The position numbers and the translations under genes were made by a program. From Candidatus Multivoradales bacterium (lineage in GTDB: Bacteria > Acidobacteriota > Thermoanaerobaculia > Multivoradales > JAHEKO01): DNA of 28,445 nucleotides. Positions 1 to 23,603 of this stretch are shown here, piece by piece (positions within the stretch are counted from its first letter, which is position 1; the number at the start of each line of letters is the position of its first letter). The notes beneath the pieces were generated by a model that ran no database searches, had not been told where the DNA came from, and worked only from the letters and a program-made list of their open reading frames with translations. The stretch spans positions 1-28,445 of the forward strand of contig CBDFIJ010000003.1 of NCBI GenBank assembly GCA_965248055.1. The letters are read 5' to 3'.

Positions 1-1649
<1,649 letters not shown>

Positions 1650-2500
1650 CTAATACGGCTTGTCTCCTGTATGCGTCCTTACATGACGGGTAAGATTACT
1701 TTGGTGAGAAAAATCCTTATCACAATGGGAACATTTAAAGGGTTTCTGTCCTGTATGTGTTCTAAGGTGGCTAGTAAGCATATTCTTTCTGCAAAATCCT
1801 TTATCACAATAGGGACAACGATAAGGCTTGTCTCCTGTATGTATCCTTACATGACAGGTAAGATTACTTAGGTGAGAAAATCGCTTATCACAATGAGAAC
1901 ATTGATAAGGCTTGTCTCCTGTATGCAACCTTAAATGACAGGTAAGATTATGTTTGCGGGAAAATCCTTTATCACAAGAGGGACAATGATAAGGCTTGTC
2001 TCCTGTATGCGTCCTTACATGACGGATAAGATGACTTTTTTTAGAAAATCCCTTATCACAATGGGAACATTGATAAGGCTTTTCTCCACTGTGTGTTCTT
2101 AAATGTATAAGGTTGCTTTCTTTAGTAAAACCCTTATTACACTTTAAGGGTTTCTCTCCTGTATGTGTTCTAAGGTGGCTAGTAAGCTCATTCTTTTGAG
2201 AAAATGTCTTATCACACCGATAACATTTAAAAGGCTTTTCTCCACTGTGTGTTTTAAAATGGCTAAGAAGGGTTCTTCTTTGAGAAAAACCCTTATCACA
2301 CTGGGAACACTTGAAAGGTTTCTCTCCTGTTTCTGTTGTAAGGTGGTGAGTATGCTCATACTCGCCCTCGTGTGTTTTCTGATGTAGTATAAGAGTGCTC
2401 TCATCAGTAAATGCCTTACTGCAATGTATACAAAATTGGGACTTCTCTCCAAAGCATGTATGTGGGTGTATCTTGGCCTGTCCATTGTCCAACTCTCTAT
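1650..2500 (-). CDS. C2H2 zinc-finger array, terminal coding exon A (8 intact fingers + 1 finger with in-frame deletions)
   Basis: ORF 1650..2492 with tandem CxxC-x12-HxxxH and TGEKP/TGDKP linkers. Acceptor ttttcctccccAG at 2501-2513 opens in phase 1 (xAT AGA GAG TTG). Ends at TAG inside a finger. Confidence 0.8.
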
Positions 2501-5773: not shown

Positions 5774-6090
5774 TTAAATGGCTAATAAGGGTACTCCTTT
5801 GAGAAAAACCTTTACCACACTGAGAGACTGAGAACACCTTAAGGGTTTCTCCATGTGTCTGTTCTAAGGTGACTAGTAAGATCACTTATACAACAAAATA
5901 CCTTATTAAATTTGAGACATTTATATGGCATTTTCCTGTTTGTTATTAGGTGATAAGCAAGACCATACACTGTATTTACAATAAAATCCCCTTTTAAACA
6001 AAGTAAACATTTAAATGGCTTTTTCCAGTAGGTATGATTAGATTAAAAGTAAGATTACAGTTACAAGAAAATCTCTTAATACAATCTAAC

Positions 6091-6410
6091 TGTTACTGAC
6101 AGGAAGTTTTCTCCTGTGTTTGATAAAATCATGTAACGATAAGTCGGGAAATGCTGACGTCATAGACGAGGCTTTTTGGGGAATTGACATGTATTTGACT
6201 ATTGAGGGCGTTTCTTCGCATGCCACTGATTTTCCTTGTTTGGAACGGTCGGACGACCGTGAGGTTGTGATGATAAATTAATTCTTTTTGATGAGCCCAA
6301 CGTTATTGAACCGTGCTGATACGTGCTGAAGTATCTTGTCAGCGTGGTCTCATACTGGGTTTAGAACTTTGTGTCCTGCTTGATTATTTATCGTCACAGT
6401 GTCCCCAACA
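6091..6410 (+). repeat. 5' LTR
   Basis: TGTTACTGAC...CCCCAACA, 320 bp. No difference from the 3' LTR found by eye. Confidence 0.97.
6155..6283 (+). promoter_or_regulatory. Putative LTR promoter elements: CRE palindrome, short palindrome, TATA-like box
   Basis: TGACGTCA at 6155-6162. ACGGTCG-GA-CGACCGT at 6245-6260. GATAAATTAATT at 6272-6283, about 29 nt upstream of 6301. Confidence 0.35.
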
Positions 6411-6414
6411 TCAA

Positions 6415-6425
6415 GTTCAATAACG
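6415..6425 (+). promoter_or_regulatory. Non-tRNA primer-binding site candidate, complementary to LTR 6301-6311
   Basis: GTTCAATAACG is the exact reverse complement of CGTTATTGAAC (6301-6311). No TGG-initiated tRNA PBS follows the LTR. Confidence 0.55.
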
Positions 6426-6435
6426 CTTCATCAGG

Positions 6436-8076
6436 ATGAATGCAGCAGGTCAACTTCAAGCTGCTGGTGGGCAGTCTGAGGTCAAACAGGAAGATGAAAA
6501 ACAGGAAAAGAAACAGGGAAATGTGTTGGAGGTGGATCCTGAAGACTCGGTGAGTCAGTGTGTCAGCCATACTAGCTCTGCTTCGTCAGCCATGTTGAAA
6601 GCTATGGCCAGAAAGGCAGCCCTAGCAGCTGAAGCAGCTGCTATAGAAGAACGCCAACAGCTAGAACTTGAGGAATTTCAACTAACGCAGCGTAAGTTGA
6701 GATTATCGGTGCAGACGAAGCTCAGGGTTGCAGAAGCAGAAGAACAGATATACCTTGAGTTTGAGAATAAGAAGTTAGGAATAAGCTTTCCTGAGAAAGA
6801 ACAGGATGAAACCTTACCATACACTCCTGGCAAGGTGGTGACAGAGACTGTTGTTCCTACTAAGTCTACGAAGTGTAAGCCTATCACAGCAGATAGGTCT
6901 GACCATGGACAACCGCTGACCATGAGTGATGATTCCGATGTAGTCACCCTACTGAAGGAAGGACAACAGGAGCAACGCCGTCTTTGGGAGGTGATGCAGC
7001 TGCCTAAGGCCGAGTTGACGCCTTATGACGGAAATCCCCTAGAATTTTGGGAGTTCTGGCGGAGTTTCGAGGACAACATTGACTCTAGTTCGTGCGGAGA
7101 TAGGACGAAGCTAACTCGCCTCTTATACTATTGTCGAGGGGAACCTAAGAGACGTTTGAGTCCTTGCTTATTAATGAACGCATCACAAGGATATTCAACA
7201 GCAAAGCGACTTCTGATTGAAAGATTTGGAGACCCAGTTGTCATCACAGACTCCTGGATGAAGAAGATAACATCTGGGAAGCAGATTGGCCCTCGTGACA
7301 AGAAAGGTCTAAGAGAGCTGGCAGATGACATGAGTGTCTGCCTTATGTCATTTCAAGCAATGGGATTCGAACAGGAACTCTCCCCTCAGAAGGTGCTTCT
7401 CCCACTGGCGGAGAGACTGCCTTTCCATTTAAAAGGGAAGTGGCTGAGCAGAGTTGGAGCGATTCGGCGCCAGGAGAGAATCCCAAGATTTGAAGATCTG
7501 ATGTACTTTGTGCAGGAGGCTGCGCAGGAAGTTAATGACCCGGTGTATGGAGAGCTGATGTCTGGTCAGAGTGAGCAACGCACGCCTTCTCGAAGTGGGA
7601 AGTCAAAGGGCTCCTTCTCTACATCTTCCACTGCAAAGCCTGTTGAACTACATGTAGAGTGTTTCCAGTGCAAGGGTAACCATAGGCTGTGGGATTGTAA
7701 GCAGTTTAAGGACTTGCCTCCTAAGGATAGAATGCGGCTAGCAAGGAATAAGGGACTGTGTTTTAACTGTCTGAGACGAGGTCATATGATAGGAGCATGT
7801 AGTAGCAAGAGGACTTGCTCAGTAGGTGGTTGCACAAGGAAGCACAATAAGCTTCTCCATATGACAGAACCTGATGGCGGCACACAAAATAGAAATGTGG
7901 AGCAAGAAGCCTCCTGTAGTTCCACAGGGGCCGGCAGGAAAAGTGTGCTCCCTATAGTGCCTGTGAGGGTGAAGGCAGAAGGCTGCCAAGTTATGCTGTG
8001 GACATATGCATTGCTGGACCAAGGGTCAACAGGTACATTTTGTTCAGCAAGTTCTAGCAAGGTCACTCGGTGCTAA
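6436..8076 (+). CDS. gag: BEL/Pao gag plus start of aspartic protease (reading frame slips near 8047)
   Basis: LTPYDGNPLEFWEFW (Pao gag core). Knuckles CFQCKGNHRLWDC, CFNCLRRGHMIGAC, CSVGGCTRKHNKLLH. Protease site ALLDQGS. Confidence 0.9.
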   Translation: MNAAGQLQAAGGQSEVKQEDEKQEKKQGNVLEVDPEDSVSQCVSHTSSASSAMLKAMARKAALAAEAAAIEERQQLELEEFQLTQRKLRLSVQTKLRVAEAEEQIYLEFENKKLGISFPEKEQDETLPYTPGKVVTETVVPTKSTKCKPITADRSDHGQPLTMSDDSDVVTLLKEGQQEQRRLWEVMQLPKAELTPYDGNPLEFWEFWRSFEDNIDSSSCGDRTKLTRLLYYCRGEPKRRLSPCLLMNASQGYSTAKRLLIERFGDPVVITDSWMKKITSGKQIGPRDKKGLRELADDMSVCLMSFQAMGFEQELSPQKVLLPLAERLPFHLKGKWLSRVGAIRRQERIPRFEDLMYFVQEAAQEVNDPVYGELMSGQSEQRTPSRSGKSKGSFSTSSTAKPVELHVECFQCKGNHRLWDCKQFKDLPPKDRMRLARNKGLCFNCLRRGHMIGACSSKRTCSVGGCTRKHNKLLHMTEPDGGTQNRNVEQEASCSSTGAGRKSVLPIVPVRVKAEGCQVMLWTYALLDQGSTGTFCSASSSKVTRC

Positions 8077-8695
8077 GGGAGTCAAAGGGAAGCTTCTACT
8101 AACGACCCTTGATCGTAAAGAAAGTACTGTCCACACTGAAGCCGTCAGTTTGGTTGTGGACTCCGGAGATTACAGCAAGCAGATCAAGATGTTATGTGTG
8201 TACACAAAGGAAAATATCAACGTCAAGGGTGTACACATGGCCACAGTCGATGACATCGAAGGACTGACCCACCTAAGAGGGATTGACATCCCTGTGGCCA
8301 CTGAAGATGAGGTGGGACTGGTCATCGGTCAAGACGTCCCAGAAGCTCTGATGCCTCTAGAGGTTAGACATGGAGAGAAAGGACCATACGCAGTAAGGAC
8401 GTGCCTTGGGTGGTCACTCCATGGTCCACTCAGCCGAGCATGTGAAATGAACACTCCAGTGTATGCTACGAACACCTTCATCGAAGGAGATCTGTGCCTC
8501 GAGAGACAGTTAGAGAGGTTCTGGAAGCTTGAGACCCCTGATCCTTTCAAGGAAGAGAGAGCTATGTCAAGGAATGATGTCAAGGCCTTGGCAGAGTGGG
8601 AGCAGGGCATCTGCATAGAGGAAGGTCATTATCAGCTCCCTATCCCGTTCAAGAAGAGACCTCCAGATCTCCAGAATAACCGATGGTTGGCTGAA
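8048..8695 (+). pseudogene. Protease C-part/spacer of the BEL polyprotein in the +1 frame, ended by an insertion-borne TAA
   Basis: QVLARSLG...VGLVIGQD...PYAVRTCLGWSLHG...LERFWKLE...YQLPIPFK...NNRWLAE are standard BEL/Pao motifs (ORF track 8006..8698). Confidence 0.85.
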
Positions 8696-8830
8696 TAACG
8701 CCAGATAAGAACGACGAAGAAGGTGCTCGGTGCCTTGATGAGACAGCAAGTGCTGTCTGACGAGAACTTATCAACGCTGATGAAACTCCTTCGTCTTAAA
8801 CAAGGACGTAATGTTTTTGTGATGGAATGA

Positions 8831-11800
8831 GGCTGTCTTGGAAGAAGGCTTAGTCAGAGTGATGGTCTCCTTCAGAAGTATACAGATGGCATGGCAGACC
8901 TTTTGAAGAAGGGATATGCAGAGGAGGTCAATGAACTTGACAGTAAGAAGGAATGCGAATGGTATTTGCCACATCACCCGGTATTCCATCCCCAGAAACC
9001 GGGAAAAGTGAGAATAGTCTTCAATTGTGCATCAGCATGGAAAGGTTTGTCACTGAATGATGTGGTTAATCAGGGACCAGATCTGACTAACAAGCTGATC
9101 GGAGTGCTGTTGAGGTTTAGAACTGCGCCAGTGGCTTTGATGGCAGACATTGAAGCGATGTTTCATCAAGTTCGTGTGCCAGCACCAGACCGAGATGTAC
9201 TGAGATTCTTATGGTGGCCAACAGGTGACTTGAAGGAAGATCCATGTGTCTACAGAATGTGTGTGCACTTATTCGGTGGGACTTGGAGTCCCAGCTGCTG
9301 TAGCTATGCCTTACGACGCACAGCTGAAGACAACAAGGGTGAATTCTCTCCTGAAGCAGTAAAGGCAGTGACTAGGAATTTCTATGTGGACGACTGCTTA
9401 ATCTCCACTAAGGATGAGGAAGATGCCATACGACTAGCACAAGAATTGAAAAGCCTGCTAGAGAAGGGAGGCTTTAACCTGATCAAGTGGACAAGTAACA
9501 ACCGCAAAGTTGTGGAAGCCATCCCAGTGGAGGATAGAAGTAAACAAGTTAAGGACTTAGATCTTAGCAAGGAAGCACTACCAGTTGAAAGAGCCCTGGG
9601 GATCAAATGGGATGTGCAAGAGGACCGTCTAGAGTACAAGACATTGATAAAGGAGAAACCACTGACAAGAAGGGGTTTGCTTAGCATTGTGTCAAGCATT
9701 TATGACCCGCTTGGCTACCTGAGTCCCTTTATCTTGAGAGCTAAGCTGTTGATGCAGAAGTTAGCAACAAAGAAGTTAGGATGGGATGACCCAATTCCAG
9801 ATGTTGGACTGCAGTTATGGCAGCAGTGGGTAAAGCAACTTCCTGAAGTAGAAAACTTCAAGGTGCCAAGATGTGTGGTTCCTGCAGGATATGGTGCCAA
9901 GACAGAGCATCAGTTACATCACTTTGCTGATGCATCCGAAGATGCCTATGGAGCGGTGACATACCTGGTGGTAAGGAACTCTAAAGGGCAAGTCTGTAGC
10001 AGTCTTGTCTTTGCCAAGTCTCGCCTCGCTCCAGTGAAGAAGACTACGATTCCTCGTCTCGAATTGATGGCTGCTACTGTTGCGGTGAAGTCAGATGTCT
10101 TAGTGAGGAGAGAACTGGATCTACCACTAAAGGACTCTGTGTTCTGGACTGACAGCATGATTGTATTGGCATACATTAAGAATGAAGACAAAAGGTTTCA
10201 CACCTTTATTGCCAATAGACTGTCTATGATTCACTCTGCCAGTGATGTAAAGCAGTGGCATCATGTCAACACGAAAGAGAATCCGGCTGATGACGTCAGT
10301 AGAGGCATGAGTGCTAGGGATCTCGTGGCTAGTGAGAGATGGCTTCATGGGCCAAAATTCATCCTGTTGACTGAAGAGCAGCAGAGCCAAGATCCAGAAG
10401 CTGATGATATCCTACTAGACGATGATCCAGAAGTAAAGACTGTGAAGGCTTATGCCGCTGAGACTGATGTTGATGTACCAATTGCGGCTACTGATGAACT
10501 GTTGAGCTACTTCTCAGATTGGTACAAGCTTAAGAAGGCAGTAGCTAGAATCTTGCAGTTTCGGGAATATCTTCTGTGCAAGGTGCGGAAGGAGGTATTT
10601 GACTGTAAGGTGCTTCTTACAGTGGATGACATGAGAGAGGCTGAGCAGGCAATCCTGAAATATGTTCAGCGCCTGGCATACCCAGCTGAATACCAGGCAA
10701 TTGAGGAGAAGCCAGCCTTGAATGGAAAGCAGAGGGCTAGTAAGTTGAAGAAGTCCAGCCCTCTCTATAAGTTAGACCCTATGATGAGCAGAACTGGGTT
10801 GCTGTGTGTTGGAGGCCGCCTTAGGAATGCAGAGCTGAGTGACGAGATGAAGCATCCCATCATCTTACCACCCAAGCATCACGTGGTAACACTGTTAGTG
10901 AGACATGTTCATGACATGGTGGGACATTCAGGCAGAGAGCATGTCCTATCGATGCTGAGGCAGCGATTCTGGTTGATCAGAGGGAGGTCTACTGTGCGAC
11001 AGGTGAAACGGGACTGTTTTAAGTGTAAACGCCTGTCGTCTCCAACTCTCGGGCAGAAGATGGCTGATTTACCTAGTGATCGTGTGGCGTTTGACAAGCC
11101 ACCATTTACTAATGTTGGAGTGGACTGTTTTGGCCCTTATCTTGTCAAACAGGGCAGAAGCCAAGTGAAGAGATATGGCTGTATCTTCACTTGCCTATGT
11201 GTGAGAGCCGTGCACATAGAGATCTTGCATTCTATGGACACTGATTCATTTCTGAACGCTCTTCATCGATTCATGGCTCGCCGTGGAAGACCAGAGCTCA
11301 TCAGATCTGACAACGGCACGAATTTCGTCGGAGCAGAGAGAGAGCTGCGAGAGGGGTTAAGTAGATGGAACCAGCAGAGAATTCATGACCATCTACTCCA
11401 GAAAGGCATTGAATGGAGGTTTAACCCACCAGCGGCCTCGCACATGGGTGGATGTTGGGAACGCCAGATAAGAACGACGAAGAAGGTGCTCGGTGCCTTG
11501 ATGAGACAGCAAGTGCTGTCTGACGAGAACTTATCAACGCTGATGTGTAAGGTGGAGTCCATCATCAACGGGCGCCCTCTGACAGTAGTGTCGGATGATG
11601 CGGTGGATCCAGAACCCCTCACTCCGAATCATTTGCTCCTGCTGCGGGGTAATGGTACTGGGCCGCCTGACCTCTTCGAGGCACGAAATGTGTATAGCAG
11701 GCGACGATGGAGACAGGTTCAGTACCTTAGTGACATTTTCTGGCAGAGATGGAGGAAAGAGTATCTTCCTACACTCCAAGCGCGACAAAGGTGGAACGAG

Positions 11801-12001
11801 CGTGAGCGTGATGTTAGCGTGGGTGACATCGTTCACATCATGGAAGAAGCACCACGAAACCACTGGGCTGTCGGTCGCGTTGTAGAGATTTTCCCAGGCA
11901 AGGATGGGCTAGTTAGGTCAGTTAGGGTGCAAACCAAATCATCGACCCTTGTTAGGCCAATTCACAAGCTGTGTCTTTTGGAATCAGTGAATCATAGATA
12001 G
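8831..12001 (+). CDS. pol: BEL/Pao pol: reverse transcriptase, RNase H, integrase
   Basis: RT: YLPHHPV, ADIEAMFHQV, FYVDD. RNase H: HHFADAS, TIPRLEL, WTDS, NPADDVSRG. IN: H..GH..CFKC, VDCFGP, SDNGTNF, WERQI, C-terminal FWQRWRKEYL. Frame open from 8831 (first ATG 8891). Confidence 0.93.
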   Translation, partial: GCLGRRLSQSDGLLQKYTDGMADLLKKGYAEEVNELDSKKECEWYLPHHPVFHPQKPGKVRIVFNCASAWKGLSLNDVVNQGPDLTNKLIGVLLRFRTAPVALMADIEAMFHQVRVPAPDRDVLRFLWWPTGDLKEDPCVYRMCVHLFGGTWSPSCCSYALRRTAEDNKGEFSPEAVKAVTRNFYVDDCLISTKDEEDAIRLAQELKSLLEKGGFNLIKWTSNNRKVVEAIPVEDRSKQVKDLDLSKEALPVERALGIKWDVQEDRLEYKTLIKEKPLTRRGLLSIVSSIYDPLGYLSPFILRAKLLMQKLATKKLGWDDPIPDVGLQLWQQWVKQLPEVENFKVPRCVVPAGYGAKTEHQLHHFADASEDAYGAVTYLVVRNSKGQVCSSLVFAKSRLAPVKKTTIPRLELMAATVAVKSDVLVRRELDLPLKDSVFWTDSMIVLAYIKNEDKRFHTFIANRLSMIHSASDVKQWHHVNTKENPADDVSRGMSARDLVASERWLHGPKFILLTEEQQSQDPEADDILLDDDPEVKTVKAYAAETDVDVPIAATDELLSYFSDWYKLKKAVARILQFREYLLCKVRKEVFDCKVLLTVDDMREAEQAILKYVQRLAYPAEYQAIEEKPALNGKQRASKLKKSSPLYKLDPMMSRTGLLCVGGRLRNAELSDEMKHPIILPPKHHVVTLLVRHVHDMVGHSGREHVLSMLRQRFWLIRGRSTVRQVKRDCFKCKRLSSPTLGQKMADLPSDRVAFDKPPFTNVGVDCFGPYLVKQGRSQVKRYGCIFTCLCVRAVHIEILHSMDTDSFLNALHRFMARRGRPELIRSDNGTNFVGAERELREGLSRWNQQRIHDHLLQKGIEWRFNPPAASHMGGCWERQIRTTKKVLGALMRQQVLSDENLSTLMCKVESIINGRPLTVVSDDAVDPEPLTPNHLLLLRGNGTGPPDLFEARNVYSRRRWRQVQYLSDIFWQRWRKEYLPTLQARQRWNERERDVSVGDIVHIMEEAPRNHWAVGRVVEIFPGKDGLVRSVRVQTKSSTLVRPIHKLCLLESVNHR

Positions 12002-12753: not shown

Positions 12754-12765
12754 AAGGGGCCGGTA
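12754..12765 (+). promoter_or_regulatory. Polypurine tract
   Basis: AAGGGGCCGGTA immediately 5' of the 3' LTR. Confidence 0.7.
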
Positions 12766-13085
12766 TGTTACTGACAGGAAGTTTTCTCCTGTGTTTGATA
12801 AAATCATGTAACGATAAGTCGGGAAATGCTGACGTCATAGACGAGGCTTTTTGGGGAATTGACATGTATTTGACTATTGAGGGCGTTTCTTCGCATGCCA
12901 CTGATTTTCCTTGTTTGGAACGGTCGGACGACCGTGAGGTTGTGATGATAAATTAATTCTTTTTGATGAGCCCAACGTTATTGAACCGTGCTGATACGTG
13001 CTGAAGTATCTTGTCAGCGTGGTCTCATACTGGGTTTAGAACTTTGTGTCCTGCTTGATTATTTATCGTCACAGTGTCCCCAACA
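12766..13085 (+). repeat. 3' LTR
   Basis: 320-bp copy of 6091-6410 followed by TSD CTAAC. Confidence 0.97.
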
Positions 13086-13213
13086 CTAACAGTTATAGAG
13101 TTTGTGTGTATTCTTAGATGCATAGGCTCATGCACTTTATGACAAAAGTAATTATAACATTAGGAACACTTAAAAGATTTCTGTCCTATATGTGTTCTAA
13201 GGTGGCTAGTAAC

Positions 13214-14334
13214 CAAGGCTCAAAATACATGAGGGCGGTGGGCGATTCGCCCCCGTGAGCTACATAATGGCCTCCGTCAGGTTGCTTACGGGGGCGATTG
13301 CAAAATTAAAAATCGCCCCCATTGAATTATAAAATAAAGATTATCTTTTCTGTTATACCTTTAACACAATATTGAGTTTCGATTTTAAAACCTTAAACCA
13401 ATATAATGGAACTTAGATTAGCGTGCAAGATTTCTCGCTCGAATTTGTCGGTGTCTAGAGAGTAAAGAAATGTACTTTTATTCGCCGGAAGATGACGCTA
13501 TATCTCCCATCTCTATGAGTATTACCGATACAAACAACCGAAACTCGCAGTGCAGTGCTGCCGTCAGCAGTGGCTATACTGCGCCGTTGGTGTGCACGCT
13601 GCCGCCCCATATCTCCTGGAGCTGGAGGTGATCGCGCAAGGGCTGAAACATTGTCATGGAGAGGTTTTTTGTTGTGTATCCTCTGAAATCTGGTAATTCC
13701 AAAAGATCAGCAAATAATGAACCTCGACCAGTAAATCAATATTGAGAAGAGGAAGACCAAAGATGTTGTGGAAGGATATGGTAACAGGAGAAGATCTACG
13801 GGGGGGGGGGGGGGGGGAGCTTAAATGGGCTGCTAAGTGAAAAATGTGATGTACATAGATTAAACGCCACAGTATTACCGGTAGTAGATGTTAGTAGGAA
13901 ATGCCAGGAAAACCATCACTTACGGGGGTTCAAACGAGCAACGACCAAACAAAAATTGCCTCGCCGTTATGGGTACACGATGCTTCCCAATGTCATTGGG
14001 TCAACCCCCCACCCCCCCTTCTTTGGAAAAAGCTAAATCCACCCCTTGGTAAAGACTTATAGTAAAGAAAGAATGTGAATATAAAGGTTGCTCCAAATAA
14101 TGAGGAAATAATGTGCAGAACTGGAAGACTGTCATCACGGGATGAAGTCAGTAACAGCTATGTAACTTGTAAATTTGTAAGAGGGAAAATGCTGACCTAA
14201 ATAAATGATAATGATGAAATAGCATAGAATTGAGGAGTATCATGGGTACCAATTAAATGGAAATTTGTATAAAAAAAAGAGCCACCATCAGTACTAAAGG
14301 AGCCCCCGTGGACAAAAAGTTAATTTGAGCCCTG
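13214..14334 (+). mobile_element. Non-autonomous hAT-like element (copy 1)
   Basis: TIR CAAGGCTCAAA / TTTGAGCCCTG. 8-bp TSD CTAGTAAC (13206-13213, 14335-14342). Subterminal GCCCCCGT motifs. Homologous to 24389-25592. Confidence 0.88.
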
Positions 14335-16952: not shown

Positions 16953-17704
16953 AGTGACTCTCACACTCTGCCGTGTAGGCCTACCGTGTGCCACCGTGCG
17001 CGAAAATGTCTGCGGACGGTGGAGAACGGCGAGGGCACACGGTGGTTCGTTATCGAAGCGGGCAACACGTTAATAGGGCGTTGGCGCTTATTTACACCCG
17101 GTGGGACCCGGCGAAAGTTTTGGGCATGTTTAAAACTTTGGCCGGCTGGCACCGGCCGCAAGTAAGCGGCAAGAGAACGATGTTGAACGGTATGAGGACG
17201 GTATGAATACATTATGAAAACGGTCACACTGTATGCACACGTTCACAACACGCTCATAACCCGTTTCAGAACGGTGATGAAAAATGGAGAGCGGACTGAC
17301 CGTTGCCGTTCAAATCGGGGTATTTATGGCAGTCGTGTCATGACGTCAGCAGTCCGGGGACTCGCTCACAGGATGCTCCGAGCGGTGAGGGGACGCTAAG
17401 TGACTGGTAGGTGGCTGCTACAAACCCGGTGCACACGTTCGAGACCCGGTATGGGCCCGGTATGGAAACGGCCAAAATTTTCAACAAAAGTCACTCTGGG
17501 CGGTGAAGACGGTAGAAGCACGTTCAACACCCGGTATGCGCCCGGTGAGAACGGTCAGAAGATGGCAACGAAACGGTGAAAAGATTAATTTTATGAATTT
17601 TTTTTTTGCGGCCGGGGACAAGTTCGCTCAAAACCCAACGTTCTGTTTTTTTAATAGCCTGGCAGGTGGACTGTAGGCCTACACGGCAGAGTGTGAGAGC
17701 TCCA
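16953..17704. mobile_element. Non-autonomous PIF/Harbinger-like element
   Basis: Perfect 27-bp inverted repeat CTCTCACACTCTGCCGTGTAGGCCTAC (16958-16984 / 17673-17699). TAA (16950-16952) / TTA (17705-17707) flanks. Removal restores TEFTIHLRTH. Confidence 0.78.
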
Positions 17705-18014
17705 TTAGATGGATAGTAAACTCAGTCTTTCAGCAAAATCCTTTATCACAATAGGGACACTAATAAGGCTAGTCTCCTGTATGCGTCCTTACATGACGGG
17801 TAAGATTACTTTGGTGAGAAAAATCCTTATCACAATGGGAACATTTAAAGGGTTTCTCTCCAGTATGTGTTCTAAGGTGGCTAATAAGCTCATTCTTTTG
17901 AGAAAATGTCACATCACACTGGGAACATTTATAAGGCTTTTCACCACTGTGTGTTCTTAAATAGCAGGTCAGGTAATATCTACGACAAAATGTCCTATCA
18001 CACTGGGAACATTT

Positions 18015-18880
18015 TTAAGGCTTTTCACCACTGTGTGTTCTTAAATGACAGGTCAGGGAATATCTATGAGAAAATGCCTTATCACACTGGGAACATTTAT
18101 AAGGCTTTTCACCACTGTGTGTTCTTAAATGACAGGTCAGGGAATATCTACGAGAAAATGCCATATCACAATAGGGACATCGATAAGGCTTGTCTCCTGT
18201 ATGAATCCTTACATGATAGGTAAGATTACTTTTGAGAGAAAATCCCTTATCACAATGGGAACATTTAAAGGGTTTCTCTCCTGTATGTGTTTTAAGGTGG
18301 CTAGTAAGCATATTCTTTCGGCAAAATTCTTTATCACAATACGGACATCTATAAGGCTTGTCTCCTGTATGTGTCCTTACATGACCGGTAAGATTATTTT
18401 GGTGAGAAAAAGCCTTATCACAATGGGAACATGTATAAGGCTTTTCTCCACTGTGTGTTCTTAAATGGCCTCTAAGGGCACTTTGGTGAGAAAAACCCTT
18501 CTCACAATGGGAACATTTAAAGGGTTTCTCTCCTGTATGTATTCTAAGGTGGCAGGTAAGACTATTCTTTTGAGAAAATGTCTTATCACACTGAGAACAT
18601 TTAAAAGGCTTTTCTCCACTGTGTGTTTTTAAATGGCTAAGAAGTGTTCTTCTTTGAGAAAAACCCTTATCACACTGGGAACACTTGAAAGGTTTCTCTC
18701 CTGTTTGTGTTGTAATGTGGTGAGTATGCTCATACTCGCCCTGGTGTGTTTTCTGATGTAGTATAAGAGCGCTCTCATCTGTAAATGCCTTACTGCAATG
18801 TAAACAAAGTTGGGACTTCTCTCCACTGCATGCTGTTATATGTGGGTGTATCTTGTCCTGTCCACTGTCCAACTCTTTAT
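18015..18880 (-). CDS. C2H2 zinc-finger array, terminal coding exon B (9 fingers)
   Basis: ORF 18015..18872. Phase-1 acceptor ttttcctccccAG at 18881-18893. Ends at TAA (TAT->TAA) after SGEKP. Paralogous to exon A including about 150 bp of intron. Confidence 0.82.
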
Positions 18881-19935: not shown

Positions 19936-21128
19936 TACATGATGGGTAAGATTACTTTGGTGAGAAAAATCCTTATCACAATGGGAACATCTATGAGGCT
20001 TCTAACCACTGTGCGTTCTTAAAGGTAAAGACCAGTTATGGTCATGCGATTGCATTGTGAAAGAAACGTTGTGGAATCGATCAGAAAAGGTTGATCATCT
20101 AGCATCTAGCATCTGCAAGGTTCTGGAATCATCAAAATGATAAGAAATTTGGCCCATTCTTTGTAAAGTTACAAGCACTATACACAATCGATGTATATGG
20201 GACTACCCTATATCTCTCACAGTCCATGAGAGAAACAAATTTACCAAATATATGAATTAGTAGGCGGTTTCCCGGCAAATTTTTTATCATCATGTATTAG
20301 TCAAAACATATTCTTTCACATGATTGGTAATGAGAGCTTCCATTTCATTTTTGAAATTGGGGCTTTTCCAATACTGGTCTTTACCTTTAAATGGCTCATA
20401 AGGGTACTTCTTCGAGAAAAACTTGTATCACAATCGGAACATCAATAAGGCTTTTCTCCACTTTGTGTTTTAAGGTGGCTAGTAAGCATATTCTTTATCA
20501 CAAATAGGAACACAGATGAGGCTTTTCTCCACTGTGTGTTCTTGAATGTCTAATAAATTTTTTTTTTTGAGAAAAACCCTTATCACACTGGGAACATTGT
20601 TAAGGCTTTTCTCCACTGTGCATTCTTAAATAGATAGTAAGATTACTTTGGCAAGTAAAAACCTTATCGCAATGAGAATATTTATGAAGCTTTTTACCAC
20701 TGTGTGTTCTTAAATGGCTTAGAAGGCTACTTCTTTGAGAAACCTGTATCACAATGGGAAAACTTAAAAGGGTTTCTCTCCTCTATGTGTTCTAAGGTGA
20801 ATAGTAAGCTTATTCTTTAGAGAAAAACCTTTATCACACTGGGAACATTGATAAGGCTTTTCTCCACTGTGCATTCTTAAATAGATAGTAAGATTACTTT
20901 GGCAAGTAAAATCTTTATCACAATGGGAACATCTATCAGGCTTTTTACCACTGTGTGTTCTTAAATAGCCTCTAAAGTTACTTCTTTGAGAAAAACCTGT
21001 ATCACAATGGGAACACTGATAAGGCTTTTCTCCTGTAAGCGTCCTTACATGACGGGTAAGATCACTTTGGTGAGAAAAATCCTTATCAAAATGGGAACAT
21101 CTATAAGGCTTTTCACCACTGTGTGTTC
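19936..21128 (-). pseudogene. Decayed 3' part of ZNF array C
   Basis: 84-bp ZNF periodicity with many indels and lost Zn ligands, downstream of a 7-nt deletion at about 21158. Confidence 0.8.
20023..20386. mobile_element. TTAA-specific non-autonomous DNA transposon (Kolobok-like, different family from 5390-5773)
   Basis: Perfect 14-bp TIR AGGTAAAGACCAGT. TTAA TSD at 20019-20022 and 20387-20390. Confidence 0.85.
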
Positions 21129-21535
21129 TTAAATGGCCCCTAAGGGTACTTCTTTGAGTGTATCACAATGAAAACATCGATAAGGCTTTTTACCACTGTG
21201 TGTTCTTAAATGGCCCTTAAGGGTACTTCTTTGAGAAAAACCTGTATCACAATGGCAACACCTAAGGGGTTTCTCTCCTGTATGTGTTTTAAGGTGGATA
21301 GTAACCTTAGACTTTTCAGAAAATCCTTTATCACAATAGACACATCGATAAGGCTTTTCTCCACTGTGCATTCTTGAATGGGTAGTAAGGTCACAATGGG
21401 AACATTTATCAGGATTTTCACCACATTTCTCATCAGTACATGTCTTACTGCAATGTAAACACAGATGGGACTTCTCTCCACTGCATACTGTTATATGTGG
21501 TTGTATCTTTTCATGTCCATTGTCCAACTCTTTAT
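21129..21535 (-). CDS. C2H2 zinc-finger array, terminal exon C (2 intact fingers, 2 deleted fingers, then frameshift); possibly non-functional
   Basis: DKELDNG...YRCVYC..HLKTH, LRCCHC..HLRTH, YRCFHCDT|frameshift. In-frame acceptor AG at 21536-21537. Confidence 0.55.
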
Positions 21536-21617
21536 CTGGATTCTGGGGAGGAAAATATACAGTAATCCTAATATCCAACTATTTACTTAATCCTGGACTA
21601 AGCTCATGCGTTTTCCT

Positions 21618-23087: not shown

Positions 23088-23603
23088 GCTGCCGCCCCAT
23101 ATCTGCTGGAGCTAGAAGCGATCGAGCAAGGATCAAAACATGGAGAAGTTTTTCATTGTGAAAAGCGTGAATCCTCTGAAATCTGTTCATCCCAAAAGAC
23201 CAGCAAATAATGAACCTCCTCCAGTAAATCAATATTGAGAAGAGAAAGACCAAAGATGTTGTGGAAGGATGTAGTAAAGACTAAAGAAAGAATGTAATAC
23301 GGTTGCTCTGAATGATGAGGAATGTGCAGAACGGGAAGAAATGGAGAGAATGTCATCAATGGATGAAACCCCTATGTAGCTTGTAAAGTTGTAAAGAGGG
23401 AAAATGCCAAATTAAATAAATGATAATGAAGTAATAGCAAAAATTTAGGAGTATCACGAGTGCCAATTCAATGGAAATTTGTATTTTAAAAAAAGAGTCC
23501 CCTTCATTACGCAAAGAGCCCCTGTGAGAAGGCTCATGGGGCTCTTTTTTTTTGGGGGGGGGGGGGAAGAGCCCCTGTGGACAAATAATTAATTTGAGCA
23601 CTG
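23088..23603 (+). mobile_element. Partial, diverged copy 2 of the hAT-like family
   Basis: Matches 13598-14334 with internal deletions. Ends AATTTGAGCACTG. Left end absent. Confidence 0.8.

What the first reader, a model, noticed from the sequence alone, without database searches (positions are those of the whole stretch)
6272..6433. Possible tRNA-independent self-priming in a BEL/Pao retrotransposon
Seen: the 5' LTR is followed by TCAA-GTTCAATAACG-CTTCATCA, with no TGG/tRNA-CCA complement. GTTCAATAACG (6415-6425) is the perfect reverse complement of LTR 6301-6311, and TGATGA (6289-6294) can additionally pair with TCATCA (6428-6433). A TATA-like GATAAATTAA lies about 29 nt upstream of 6301. 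The pairing polarity puts the 3' end of the 11-mer pointing into U5. Established: S. pombe Tf1 and related Ty3/Gypsy (Tf1/sushi group) elements prime minus-strand synthesis with the first 11 nt of their own RNA annealed to the PBS and cut by RNase H. Inference: this BEL/Pao lineage may self-prime convergently, which I do not know to be described for BEL/Pao. Chance of a given 11-mer in 320 nt is roughly 320/4^11 (about 1e-4), ignoring base composition.
Basis: partly seen in the sequence, partly recalled or inferred. Interest (0 to 1): 0.85.

Follow-up and report, generated by a model that had tools for sequence, protein, structure and literature searches.

The report
Self-primed BEL/Pao retrotransposon, sea urchin
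A sea-urchin BEL/Pao retrotransposon has no tRNA binding site and instead carries, right after its repeat, a short sequence that pairs with its own repeat, and distant relatives keep this pairing with different letters, which points to an element that primes its own copying.

Summary
The window holds a BEL/Pao element with identical 320-bp LTRs (6091-6410, 12766-13085) and a CTAAC target duplication. It has a 25-nt leader with no TGG. GTTCAATAACG (6415-6425) is the exact reverse complement of LTR 6301-6311. Chance is about 1e-3 to 4e-3, not 1e-4.

I defined the 5' LTR end from two LTR copies in 10 further lineages from metagenome and MAG contigs (Pol 36-62% identical between lineages). In 5 of the 10, the first 16 nt after the LTR pair with that element's own LTR better than 95% of internal 16-mers (Fisher 3e-5; 4e-4 in the version fixed beforehand). 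The 16 nt after the 3' LTR never do (0 of 9). The paired letters differ between lineages. The leader arm starts 0-4 nt after the LTR end (6 nt in one lineage). None has TGG there.

Best reading: Tf1-like self-priming in a BEL/Pao clade, which the ICTV profile describes as tRNA-primed.

Not shown: the transcription start, the RNase H cut, and absence of a matching host tRNA.

Against: other copies of this family carry 735 extra letters inside the 11-mer, and this copy's coding region is broken.

The parts
6086..6090 (+). Target-site duplication CTAAC, left copy
   Evidence: the same 5 nt stand at 13086-13090.
6091..6410 (+). 5' LTR, 320 bp, TGTTAC...CCAACA
   Evidence: 320 of 320 identical to 12766-13085.
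6272..6281 (+). TATA-like GATAAATTAA, 29 nt before the arm. It contains GATAAA, which could also serve as a weak poly(A) signal (recalled, not tested).
   Evidence: sequence only. No transcription data.
6289..6294 (+). Helix 2, LTR arm TGATGA. A 6-nt loop (6295-6300) separates it from the main arm.
   Evidence: p 0.004 against shuffles of the 16 nt upstream. A like helix is seen in L011 and L059 only (3 of 9 lineages).
6301..6311 (+). Helix 1, LTR arm CGTTATTGAAC. This is the proposed self-primer. Its 3' end points toward the LTR end, 99 nt away.
   Evidence: Base-pair probability is 0.77 when the RNA is folded from 6301. Other copies have 735 letters between 6304 and 6305.
6310..6348 (+). Predicted hairpin directly after the arm, in the position of Tf1's U5-IR stem-loop
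   Evidence: minimum-free-energy fold. The whole-fold z-score is only -0.71, so this is weak.
6411..6414 (+). Spacer TCAA between the LTR end and the primer-binding site
   Evidence: Spacers are 0-4 nt in eight of the nine lineages tabulated and 6 nt in L009/L068.
6415..6425 (+). Primer-binding site GTTCAATAACG, complementary to 6301-6311
6428..6433 (+). Helix 2, leader arm TCATCA
6436..8076 (+). gag ORF (546 aa, DUF1759). The leader before it is only 25 nt.
8006..8698 (+). Second ORF piece, in another frame. Relatives have one gag-pol ORF of about 1800-2080 aa, so this copy is interrupted here.
   Evidence: Other copies differ from the window near 8054 and at 8696-8834.
8891..12001 (+). pol piece (1036 aa): RT, Pao peptidase model A17, integrase, DUF5641
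   Evidence: It is 99% identical to a predicted Strongylocentrotus purpuratus protein.
12754..12763 (+). Polypurine tract AAGGGGCCGG, 2 nt before the 3' LTR
   Evidence: The same GGGGCCGG motif stands before the 3' LTR in L003, L006, L010, L011, L020, L023, L040 and L093.
12766..13085 (+). 3' LTR. Its copies of helix 2 arm and helix 1 arm lie at 12964-12969 and 12976-12986.
13086..13090 (+). Target-site duplication CTAAC, right copy

Best explanation
This is a recently inserted BEL/Pao LTR retrotransposon of a sea urchin, with a broken coding region. Its minus-strand primer-binding site (6415-6425) is complementary to an 11-nt stretch of its own LTR (6301-6311), not to a tRNA 3' end.

Proposed mechanism, as in Tf1 of S. 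pombe. The stretch lies at or within a few nt of the 5' end of the genomic RNA (the start of R). It folds back onto the primer-binding site and closes an R-U5 panhandle. The element's RNase H cuts the RNA 3' of the paired stretch. The freed 3'-OH primes minus-strand strong-stop DNA through TCAA and U5. Plus-strand copying of the RNA primer then rewrites the primer-binding site each cycle, which keeps the two arms complementary.

Shown here:
- the complementarity, with its position and polarity;
- its recurrence with different letters in relatives;
- the absence of TGG.

Inferred:
- that the arm is in the RNA 5' end;
- the cut;
- the priming itself.
For: 1. Anatomy. The 11-bp match starts 4 nt after the LTR end. 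The arm's 3' end points into U5. The leader is only 25 nt, which leaves no room for an 18-nt tRNA site.

2. Relatives, fixed test. In 12 loci the 5' LTR end was set by two LTR copies. I compared the first 16 nt after the LTR with that LTR and took an empirical p against 198-320 internal 16-mers per locus.
- window 11 bp, p 0.004
- L011 10 bp, p 0.004
- L059 10 bp, p 0.0045
- L055 9 bp, p 0.014
- L100 9 bp, p 0.020
- L006 8 bp, p 0.044
- L093 8 bp, p 0.075
- L015 7 bp, p 0.12
- L040, L051, L068 and L090 not significant
- Fisher without the window and L100: 4e-4

3. Control. After a post hoc correction of the L090 boundary, 5 of 10 lineages excluding the window reach p<=0.05 (Fisher 3e-5). For the 16 nt after the 3' LTR it is 0 of 9 (Fisher 0.996).

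4. Covariation. Arm/site pairs in 9 lineages:
- CGTTATTGAAC / GTTCAATAACG
- TGTTATGTAT / ATACATAACA
- TGTTTTTTAC / GTAAAAAACA
- AGTTTTTAC / GTAAAAACT
- CTTTTTAC / GTAAAAAG
- AGGTTGAACT / AGTTCAACTT
- TCAAACAA / TTGTTTGA
- AGTTCGAAC / GTTCGAATT (two lineages)
Helix positions 1-10 each show 2-4 pair types. All cells are Watson-Crick except 3 G-U. Pol identity between these lineages is 36-62%.

5. No shared TGG-type site occurs among 62 loci, and none of the 12 defined LTR ends is followed by TGG.

6. Context fits the start of R. AATAAA or ATTAAA follows the arm within 0-26 nt in L011, L059, L056, L058, L093 and L083. A CA or TCAG motif stands at or just before the arm in most lineages. TATA-like motifs lie 28-29 nt before the arm in the window and L059.

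7. Folding from the arm gives helix 1 a pair probability of 0.77-0.96 in the window, L011, L059, L058 and L093.

8. Without using LTR ends, the 48 nt before the gag ATG reach >=10 nt of complementarity upstream in 6 of 62 loci. A control zone inside gag does so in 0 of 62. For >=9 nt the counts are 17 against 3. Some of these loci are near-duplicates.
Against: - No transcription start, poly(A) site or cDNA primer was mapped. All four runs laid were contigs, and three were only guessed to be RNA.
- Host tRNAs, tRNA halves and other small RNAs could not be compared with 6411-6435.
- In one search a contig of X19 has 735 letters between 6304 and 6305, inside the arm. A contig of X1 diverges after 6304. 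The window's LTR may therefore be a minority or deletion form and the 11-mer a junction. If the long form is the replicating one, its arm may be split.
- The window's LTR has no AATAAA or ATTAAA after the arm, unlike six relatives.
- The signal is not universal. L040 shows none, L068 and L051 (5' copy) fail the fixed test, and L006 and L090 have only 8 bp.
- The energy-based scan was significant only for L011.
- MAFFT plus RNAalifold predicted no pairs, because the ends did not align in register.
- With 14 nt of upstream sequence added, helix 1 drops to probability 0.08 in the window's fold.
- Helix 2 sits upstream of the start predicted from the TATA-like motif, which a strict 'first 11 nt' model does not explain.
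Confidence: 0.6

Rival explanations
1. The LTR/leader pairing is a conserved RNA structure with another role, and the primer is something else. The role could be an R-U5/leader panhandle or a 5'-3' cyclisation between the U3-R junction of the 3' LTR copy and the leader. Such a structure could serve packaging, dimerisation or strand transfer.
For: Helix 2 lies upstream of the likely start, so in a genomic RNA it could form only with the 3' LTR copy. It is seen in the window, L011 and L059 (p 0.004, 0.036, 0.05). In several lineages the leader motif is partly palindromic (AGTTCGAA), as dimerisation sites are. Long-range 5'-3' pairings are known in Ty1 and Ty3 (recalled, no call).
Against: A structural helix need not begin 0-4 nt after the LTR end with the arm's 3' end facing U5, yet it does so in eight of the nine lineages tabulated. 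The leaders are 14-25 nt in the window, L011, L059, L055 and L093. The helices fill them, which leaves no other site for a primer. No TGG or shared site exists.
Confidence: 0.2
2. A host RNA primes at 6411-6430. It could be a tRNA internal region, a tRNA half (as for copia or Ty5), or another small RNA. The LTR complement would then be incidental or regulatory.
For: Half-tRNA priming exists in Ty1/copia lineages (passage of PMC6317226). The ICTV profile states tRNA-Arg or tRNA-Gly priming for the family (passage of PMC8742986). A recurrent motif (T)TAGTTCGAATTTG follows the LTR in three or more lineages, and the window and L093 have AAGTTCAA there. That could mean a shared trans-acting primer. 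Host tRNAs could not be checked.
Against: The sites differ between lineages (GTTCAATAACG, ATACATAACA, GTAAAAAACA, GTAAAAACT, GTAAAAAG, TTGTTTGA), and each is matched in cis by its own LTR. A conserved host RNA would not produce that. The recurrent motif resembles the sense strand of a tRNA T-loop, not its complement (my reading, recalled tRNA features). In those lineages the LTR also carries the matching AGTTCGAAC.
Confidence: 0.12
3. Chance, or an accident of this copy. The 11-mer would be the junction of a 735-nt deletion in a defective copy and would have no function.
For:: other copies carry 735 letters between 6304 and 6305. The window's copy has interrupted reading frames. A deletion made during the last round of reverse transcription would appear in both LTRs.
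Against: A random junction would have to create an 11-bp helix and also place it 6 nt from a 6-bp second helix. It would have to do so at the same place, and with the same polarity, as the helices of independent lineages. Probability for the helix alone is about 1e-3 to 4e-3. Relatives' LTRs of 177-396 bp match the short form's layout.
Confidence: 0.05

Closest known systems
Tf1 / Tf2 / Tj1 and the Tf1/sushi group (Ty3/gypsy chromoviruses), including the plant and fungal Tcn1 clade
   Same: There is no tRNA-type site. The primer-binding site next to the 5' LTR is complementary to a short stretch of the element's own LTR near the RNA 5' end. Self-priming was inferred from the same kind of sequence evidence for Tj1, sushi and Tcn1 (passages of PMC4600332, and PMC6317226). 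A hairpin follows the arm, as Tf1's U5-IR does (Tf1 detail recalled).
   Different: The superfamily is different: BEL/Pao, with Pao peptidase A17 and DUF5641. The arm's position relative to the transcription start is unknown. A second helix lies upstream of the arm in 3 of 9 lineages. There is no experimental proof.
Ty1/copia TAR lineage (Houba, Osr-1), predicted self-primers in plants
   Same: Self-priming is predicted from sequence in a superfamily other than Ty3/gypsy (passage of PMC6317226).
   Different: These are plant copia elements. I saw only that passage, not their sequences.
BEL/Pao (Belpaoviridae, Semotivirus) as described by ICTV
   Same: Gene content, LTRs of 0.2-1.2 kb, a polypurine tract of about 10 nt, and a metazoan host (passages of PMC8742986).
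   Different: [quoted passage not shown] Here the leader has 25 nt, no TGG, and an 11-nt site matching the element's own LTR.
Long-range 5'-3' pairings of Ty1 (CYC5/CYC3) and the bipartite Ty3 primer-binding site
   Same: This is a possible parallel for helix 2, which could pair the U3-R junction of the 3' LTR copy with the leader.
   Different: Those elements use initiator tRNA-Met. The comparison is recalled from memory and was not tested by any search.

Membership tests
BEL/Pao (Belpaoviridae) | Pol with a Pao-type aspartic peptidase model plus RT and integrase | tested here: met
   Peptidase_A17 1.9e-50, RVT_1, Integrase_H2C2, rve, DUF5641; 3988 relatives, the best-named ones being uncharacterised proteins of echinoderms, cnidarians and molluscs.
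BEL/Pao (Belpaoviridae) | LTRs with TG..CA ends, a short target duplication and a polypurine tract | tested here: met
   320-bp identical LTRs, CTAAC duplication, AAGGGGCCGG before the 3' LTR.
BEL/Pao (Belpaoviridae) | 18-nt primer-binding site complementary to the 3' end of tRNA-Arg or tRNA-Gly (ICTV profile) | tested here: not met
   no TGG within the leader of the window or after any of 12 defined LTR ends, and the leader is 25 nt. Host tRNA sequences themselves were not available.
Self-primed LTR retrotransposons (mechanism of Tf1) | Primer-binding site next to the 5' LTR, complementary to the element's own LTR, with the arm's 3' end facing U5 | tested here: met
   11 bp, 4 nt after the LTR end, p 0.004.
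Self-primed LTR retrotransposons (mechanism of Tf1) | Complementarity kept in relatives through changes on both sides | tested here: met
   5 of 10 further lineages at p<=0.05 (Fisher 3e-5; 4e-4 in the fixed version). The control gives 0 of 9. There are 2-4 pair types at each of helix positions 1-10.
Self-primed LTR retrotransposons (mechanism of Tf1) | The arm is the first nucleotides of the transcript | not testable with these tools
   There is only indirect context: a TATA-like motif 29 nt upstream, CA or TCAG at the arm, and poly(A) signals after the arm in relatives. Runs were contigs.
Self-primed LTR retrotransposons (mechanism of Tf1) | RNase H cleavage of the RNA duplex 3' of the arm, and cDNA carrying the element's own RNA as primer | not testable with these tools
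   This needs biochemistry.
Tf1/sushi group (phylogenetic family) | Ty3/gypsy chromovirus Pol | tested here: not met
   the protein families are those of BEL/Pao. The element works like Tf1 but is not a member of that group.

The most novel reading that the evidence does not exclude
A whole clade of BEL/Pao elements of marine invertebrates has given up tRNA priming. In addition, the stretch that pairs with the primer-binding site is used in its 3' LTR copy. The U3-R junction at the 3' end of the genomic RNA (helix 2, loop, helix 1: 17 bp in the window) would pair with the site and leader at the 5' end. One cyclised RNA would then couple primer supply with minus-strand transfer. That arrangement is not described for any retroelement. 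The breakpoints found inside or at the arm (735 letters at 6304/6305 in other copies; the 3' repeat of L051 starting at its arm) would be scars of that step.
Probability: 0.1. Interest if true: 0.85.

Novelty: new variant of a known kind. Interest (0 to 1): 0.66.

Why it matters
Self-priming has been proven only for Tf1. It has been inferred for its Ty3/gypsy relatives and for one plant copia lineage. BEL/Pao, the least studied LTR superfamily, is described as tRNA-primed in its ICTV profile, and the metazoan survey I searched has no occurrence of 'PBS', 'primer binding', 'tRNA' or 'self-prim' in its main text.

If a clade of BEL/Pao elements primes itself, three things follow.
- Self-priming has arisen or been kept in all three LTR superfamilies.
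- Annotation pipelines that look for tRNA-complementary sites will miss or mis-score these elements.
- Host defences that act through 3' tRNA fragments would not touch them.

The claim can be tested directly with 5' end mapping and with genome-wide censuses in sea urchins, which are a standard laboratory animal.

Tried and rejected
**Searches that found nothing**
- Host tRNA test: ARAGORN found 0 tRNA genes in the window and in 99 fetched loci, so there was nothing to compare.
- Rfam: 0 families in the window.
- The window's own assembly (G000, 4 contigs, 3.4 Mb) holds only the two LTRs of this element, so there are no other copies.
- Close relatives were not found in genome contigs with Pol alone, or in viral contigs with Gag or alignment A1.

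**Sequencing runs**
- All 24 runs listed were Logan contigs with coded or guessed kinds.
- The four laid (X1, X11, X15, X19; 4 of 24) gave no starts or ends (table 6: none), so no transcription start.
- Parts of the LTR without cover in some runs (about 6308-6380 in X15, worked out from bin depths) are not used as evidence.

**Structure analyses that were weak or failed**
- The energy-based duplex scan was noisy. Only L011 beat all 100 shuffles, and the window had p about 0.08.
- My first two-helix scan had a scoring fault: it discarded the window's helix 2 because of two trailing G-U pairs. Its control rate was also high (helix of 8 or more in 18 of 61 leaders against 233 of 1220 controls). 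I do not rely on it.
- MAFFT plus RNAalifold on seven arm-to-site stretches predicted 0 pairs, because the unrelated sequences did not align in register.
- The pair table is therefore my own end-anchored listing, fitted to the helices found by scanning.
- The whole-region fold of 6301-6440 is not more stable than shuffles (z -0.71).

**Ideas rejected**
- The leader as a tRNA T-arm complement: it resembles the sense strand.
- Terminal inverted repeats of the LTR as the source of the match: the arms are internal.

**Literature**
- Searches found no paper describing self-priming in BEL/Pao.
- I read passages only of PMC3601003, PMC13524379, PMC3286476, PMC8742986, PMC554778, PMC3118150, PMC6317226, PMC4600332, PMC5443660 and PMC5445492.
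- The Tf1 papers of Levin and of Lin were not held.
- Frame et al. 2001 and Butler et al. 2001 (recalled) are in subscription journals and were not searchable. They could bear on priority.
- Supplements were closed and were not asked for.
Full report
**What is there**

The window is the whole contig C3 of a 3.4-Mb, four-contig assembly filed as a prokaryote, but its content is animal. It holds arrays of C2H2 zinc fingers with an 84-nt period and one complete LTR retrotransposon. The element's Pol piece is 99% identical to a predicted protein of Strongylocentrotus purpuratus. The next relatives, at 60% and below, come from other echinoderms, cnidarians, molluscs and unnamed marine metagenome contigs. 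Pfam places it in BEL/Pao: Peptidase_A17 at 1.9e-50, plus RVT_1, rve, Integrase_H2C2 and DUF5641, with DUF1759 in gag.

Its LTRs (6091-6410 and 12766-13085) are 320 of 320 identical, run TG..CA, and are flanked by the duplication CTAAC. A polypurine tract AAGGGGCCGG stands 2 nt before the 3' LTR. The coding region is in three pieces (6436-8076, 8006-8698, 8891-12001), whereas most relatives have one gag-pol frame of about 1800-2080 codons. This is therefore a young insertion of a defective copy.

**The observation**

Between the LTR end and the gag ATG there are only 25 nt: TCAA, GTTCAATAACG, CT, TCATCA, GG. There is no TGG. The 11-mer is the exact reverse complement of LTR 6301-6311, and TCATCA is the reverse complement of 6289-6294.

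- 5 of 5000 leader shuffles reach 11 nt;
- 0 of 1261 internal 25-nt windows do;
- the empirical p is 0.004 for the first 16 nt.

**Relatives**

No close relative was reachable. An alignment of 32 Pol sequences (A1) brought 80 loci from metagenome contigs (the best 80 of 561 confirmed) and 19 from contigs binned into bacterial MAGs, at 29-53% Pol identity.

Self-comparison gave two LTR copies, and hence an exact 5' LTR end, in 11 loci. With the window these make 11 lineages, L006 and L100 being one lineage. None of these LTR ends is followed by TGG, the sequences after them differ, and no TGG-type word is shared among the 5' regions of 62 loci.

In the test fixed beforehand, I compared the first 16 nt after the LTR with the same element's LTR and judged the result against 198-320 internal 16-mers per locus. 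The longest Watson-Crick helix was:

| Locus | Helix (bp) | p |
|---|---|---|
| window | 11 | 0.004 |
| L011 | 10 | 0.004 |
| L059 | 10 | 0.0045 |
| L055 | 9 | 0.014 |
| L100 | 9 | 0.020 |
| L006 | 8 | 0.044 |
| L093 | 8 | 0.075 |
| L015 | 7 | 0.12 |
| L040, L051, L068, L090 | - | not significant |

Fisher's combination without the window and L100 is 4e-4.

For L090 the two copies happen to share three more letters. With the end set at its CA, the leader starts GTAAAAAG and pairs with CTTTTTAC in the LTR. With that post hoc correction, 5 of 10 lineages other than the window reach p<=0.05 (Fisher 3e-5).

The control uses the same procedure on the 16 nt after the 3' LTR. It gives 0 of 9 lineages at p<=0.05 (Fisher 0.996).

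A cruder test that needs no LTR ends points the same way. The 48 nt before the gag ATG, compared with up to 1255 nt upstream, reach 10 nt or more in 6 of 62 loci, against 0 of 62 for a zone inside gag. For 9 nt or more the counts are 17 against 3. Near-duplicate loci are included.

**Covariation and anatomy**

The paired sequences differ from lineage to lineage while staying complementary. They are listed and in the For line. Positions 1-10 of the end-anchored helices each show 2 to 4 pair types. This table is my own listing, fitted to helices found by scanning. MAFFT plus RNAalifold could not align these unrelated stretches and predicted nothing.

Within the group whose sites begin GTAAAA (L059, L055/56/58, L090, L051), homologous arm contexts (TTTCAG...TTTTAC) carry a G-C pair in L056 where L090 has C-G.

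The leader arm begins 0-4 nt after the LTR end, or 6 nt in L009/L068, whose end is known only to about 5 nt. The LTR arm lies 48-275 nt before the LTR end, with its 3' end toward it. Leaders are short where they could be read: 14 nt (L059), 17 (L093), 18 (L055) and 25 (window, L011).

Several features suit an arm at the start of R:
- AATAAA or ATTAAA follows the arm within 0-26 nt in L011, L059, L056, L058, L093 and L083.
- CA or TCAG stands at the arm's first letters in most lineages.
- A TATA-like motif lies 28-29 nt before the arm in the window and L059.

Folding the RNA from the arm to just past the ATG gives helix 1 a pair probability of 0.77-0.96 in the window, L011, L059, L058 and L093.

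**How it most likely works**

The site directly after the 5' LTR is, by the logic of LTR replication, where the minus-strand primer sits. Here it matches the element's own LTR, not a shared host RNA. The simplest mechanism is that of Tf1:
1. The 5' end of the RNA folds back on the site.
2. RNase H cuts the RNA after the paired stretch.
3. The new 3' end is extended through U5.
4. The plus strand later copies the RNA primer, so the site is rewritten from the arm each cycle.

That last step would explain perfect complementarity in young copies and decay in old ones. L051, whose LTRs are 88% alike, has a degenerate 5' arm. Only the pairing and its conservation are shown here; the start site, the cut and the priming are inferred. 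I put this reading at 0.6.

**What does not fit**

1; in all four runs the family is present as near-identical contigs. In X19, however, a 7176-nt contig has 735 letters between 6304 and 6305, inside the arm. In X1 a 381-nt contig follows 6091-6304 and then goes on unlike the window. I could not obtain those letters. The short LTR has the same layout as the relatives' LTRs of 177-396 bp, including helix 2 next to helix 1, and I take that as a sign that it is a working form rather than a random deletion. This is a judgement, not a result.
2. The window's LTR has no canonical poly(A) signal after the arm.
3. Helix 2 (TGATGA/TCATCA) has counterparts in L011 and L059 only (3 of 9 lineages). It lies before the start predicted from the TATA-like motif. 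It could form in the RNA only if transcription starts further upstream, as the TATA spacing in L011 would allow, or with the 3' LTR copy.
4. A recurrent motif after the LTR could point to a shared host primer: (T)TAGTTCGAATTTG in the L009/29/30/68, L014/15/20 and L047 groups, and AAGTTCAA in the window and L093. In those lineages the LTR also carries AGTTCGAAC, which pairs with the motif.
5. L040 shows nothing.

**Comparison with what is known**

Self-priming was demonstrated for Tf1. It has been inferred from the same kind of complementarity for Tj1, the vertebrate sushi group, the Tcn1 clade and the copia TAR lineage (passages in PMC4600332 and PMC6317226).

The ICTV profile of Belpaoviridae states an 18-nt site for tRNA-Arg or tRNA-Gly and tRNA-primed replication (passages). 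The survey of BEL/Pao in metazoan genomes has no occurrence of 'PBS', 'primer binding', 'tRNA' or 'self-prim' in its main text. None of eight searches turned up self-priming in BEL/Pao. Older subscription papers were not searchable.

The element is a BEL/Pao member that fails the family's stated priming feature. It works like Tf1 without belonging to the Tf1/sushi group.

**Verdict**

In novelty it is a new variant of a known kind: a known mechanism in a third LTR superfamily, apparently across a clade of marine invertebrate elements. Interest is 0.66.

Noticed in passing
window 1-28445 (whole contig): The contig is animal DNA. Its Pol is 99% identical to a purple sea urchin predicted protein, and it holds C2H2 zinc-finger arrays. 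Yet it sits as one of four contigs in a 3.4-Mb assembly filed as a prokaryote with 97.7% completeness, so it is most likely host contamination of that assembly.
   Followed up: partly
window 1-2500, 17680-18880, 20390-21540, minus strand: There are arrays of 84-nt repeats in 19-33 copies per repeat family. ORFs 1650-2492 and 18015-18872 on the minus strand are C2H2 zinc-finger arrays (zf-H2C2_2 2e-62 and 1e-65). The element lies between zinc-finger gene pieces.
   Followed up: partly
window 13166-13400: The stretch just downstream of the element has summed contig word depth of 13,000 to 128,000 in all four runs, against 24-700 for the element. There are many diverged contigs and loose ends, so this is a very abundant short repeat of the host.
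   Followed up: no
window 8696-8834 and near 8054: In all four runs a contig joins 8695 to 8835 with a short different stretch in place of these 139 nt. All four also differ from the window by a one-letter indel at 8054. These are the places where the window's reading frame is interrupted.
   Followed up: partly
window 6304/6305: A contig of run X19 carries 735 extra letters exactly here, and a contig of X1 diverges here. The LTR interior of this family is polymorphic at the proposed primer.
   Followed up: partly
L051 1-345 and 6760-7115: The two repeat copies are alike only from the arm onward (182 nt, 88% identity). The 3' copy has a perfect 11-nt complement of the site (GTAAAACATCG) straddling the start of the repeat, directly after a purine-rich tract. 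The 5' copy keeps upstream sequence like the U3 of L056 and L058 but has a degenerate arm.
   Followed up: partly
L003, L006, L010, L011, L020, L023, L040, L093 and window 12754-12763: A nearly invariant polypurine tract (A)GGGGCCGG stands 0-3 nt before the TGT of the 3' LTR. It occurs in lineages whose LTRs are otherwise unalignable.
   Followed up: no
L024, L076, L081, L013, L016: Some contigs repeat whole-element lengths (for example 9755 nt at a period of 6138 in L024) or have terminal overlaps that run through the LTR into gag. These are either tandem LTR-internal-LTR arrays or circular assembly paths from collapsed LTRs.
   Followed up: no
L083-L101: 19 contigs binned into bacterial MAGs (labelled Rubritalea, Sedimenticola, Flavobacteriales and others) encode BEL/Pao Pol. 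This shows animal retrotransposon contigs mis-binned into MAGs.
   Followed up: no
window 13674-13784 and 23167-23277: A 111-nt direct repeat pair at 91% identity, unrelated to the element.
   Followed up: no
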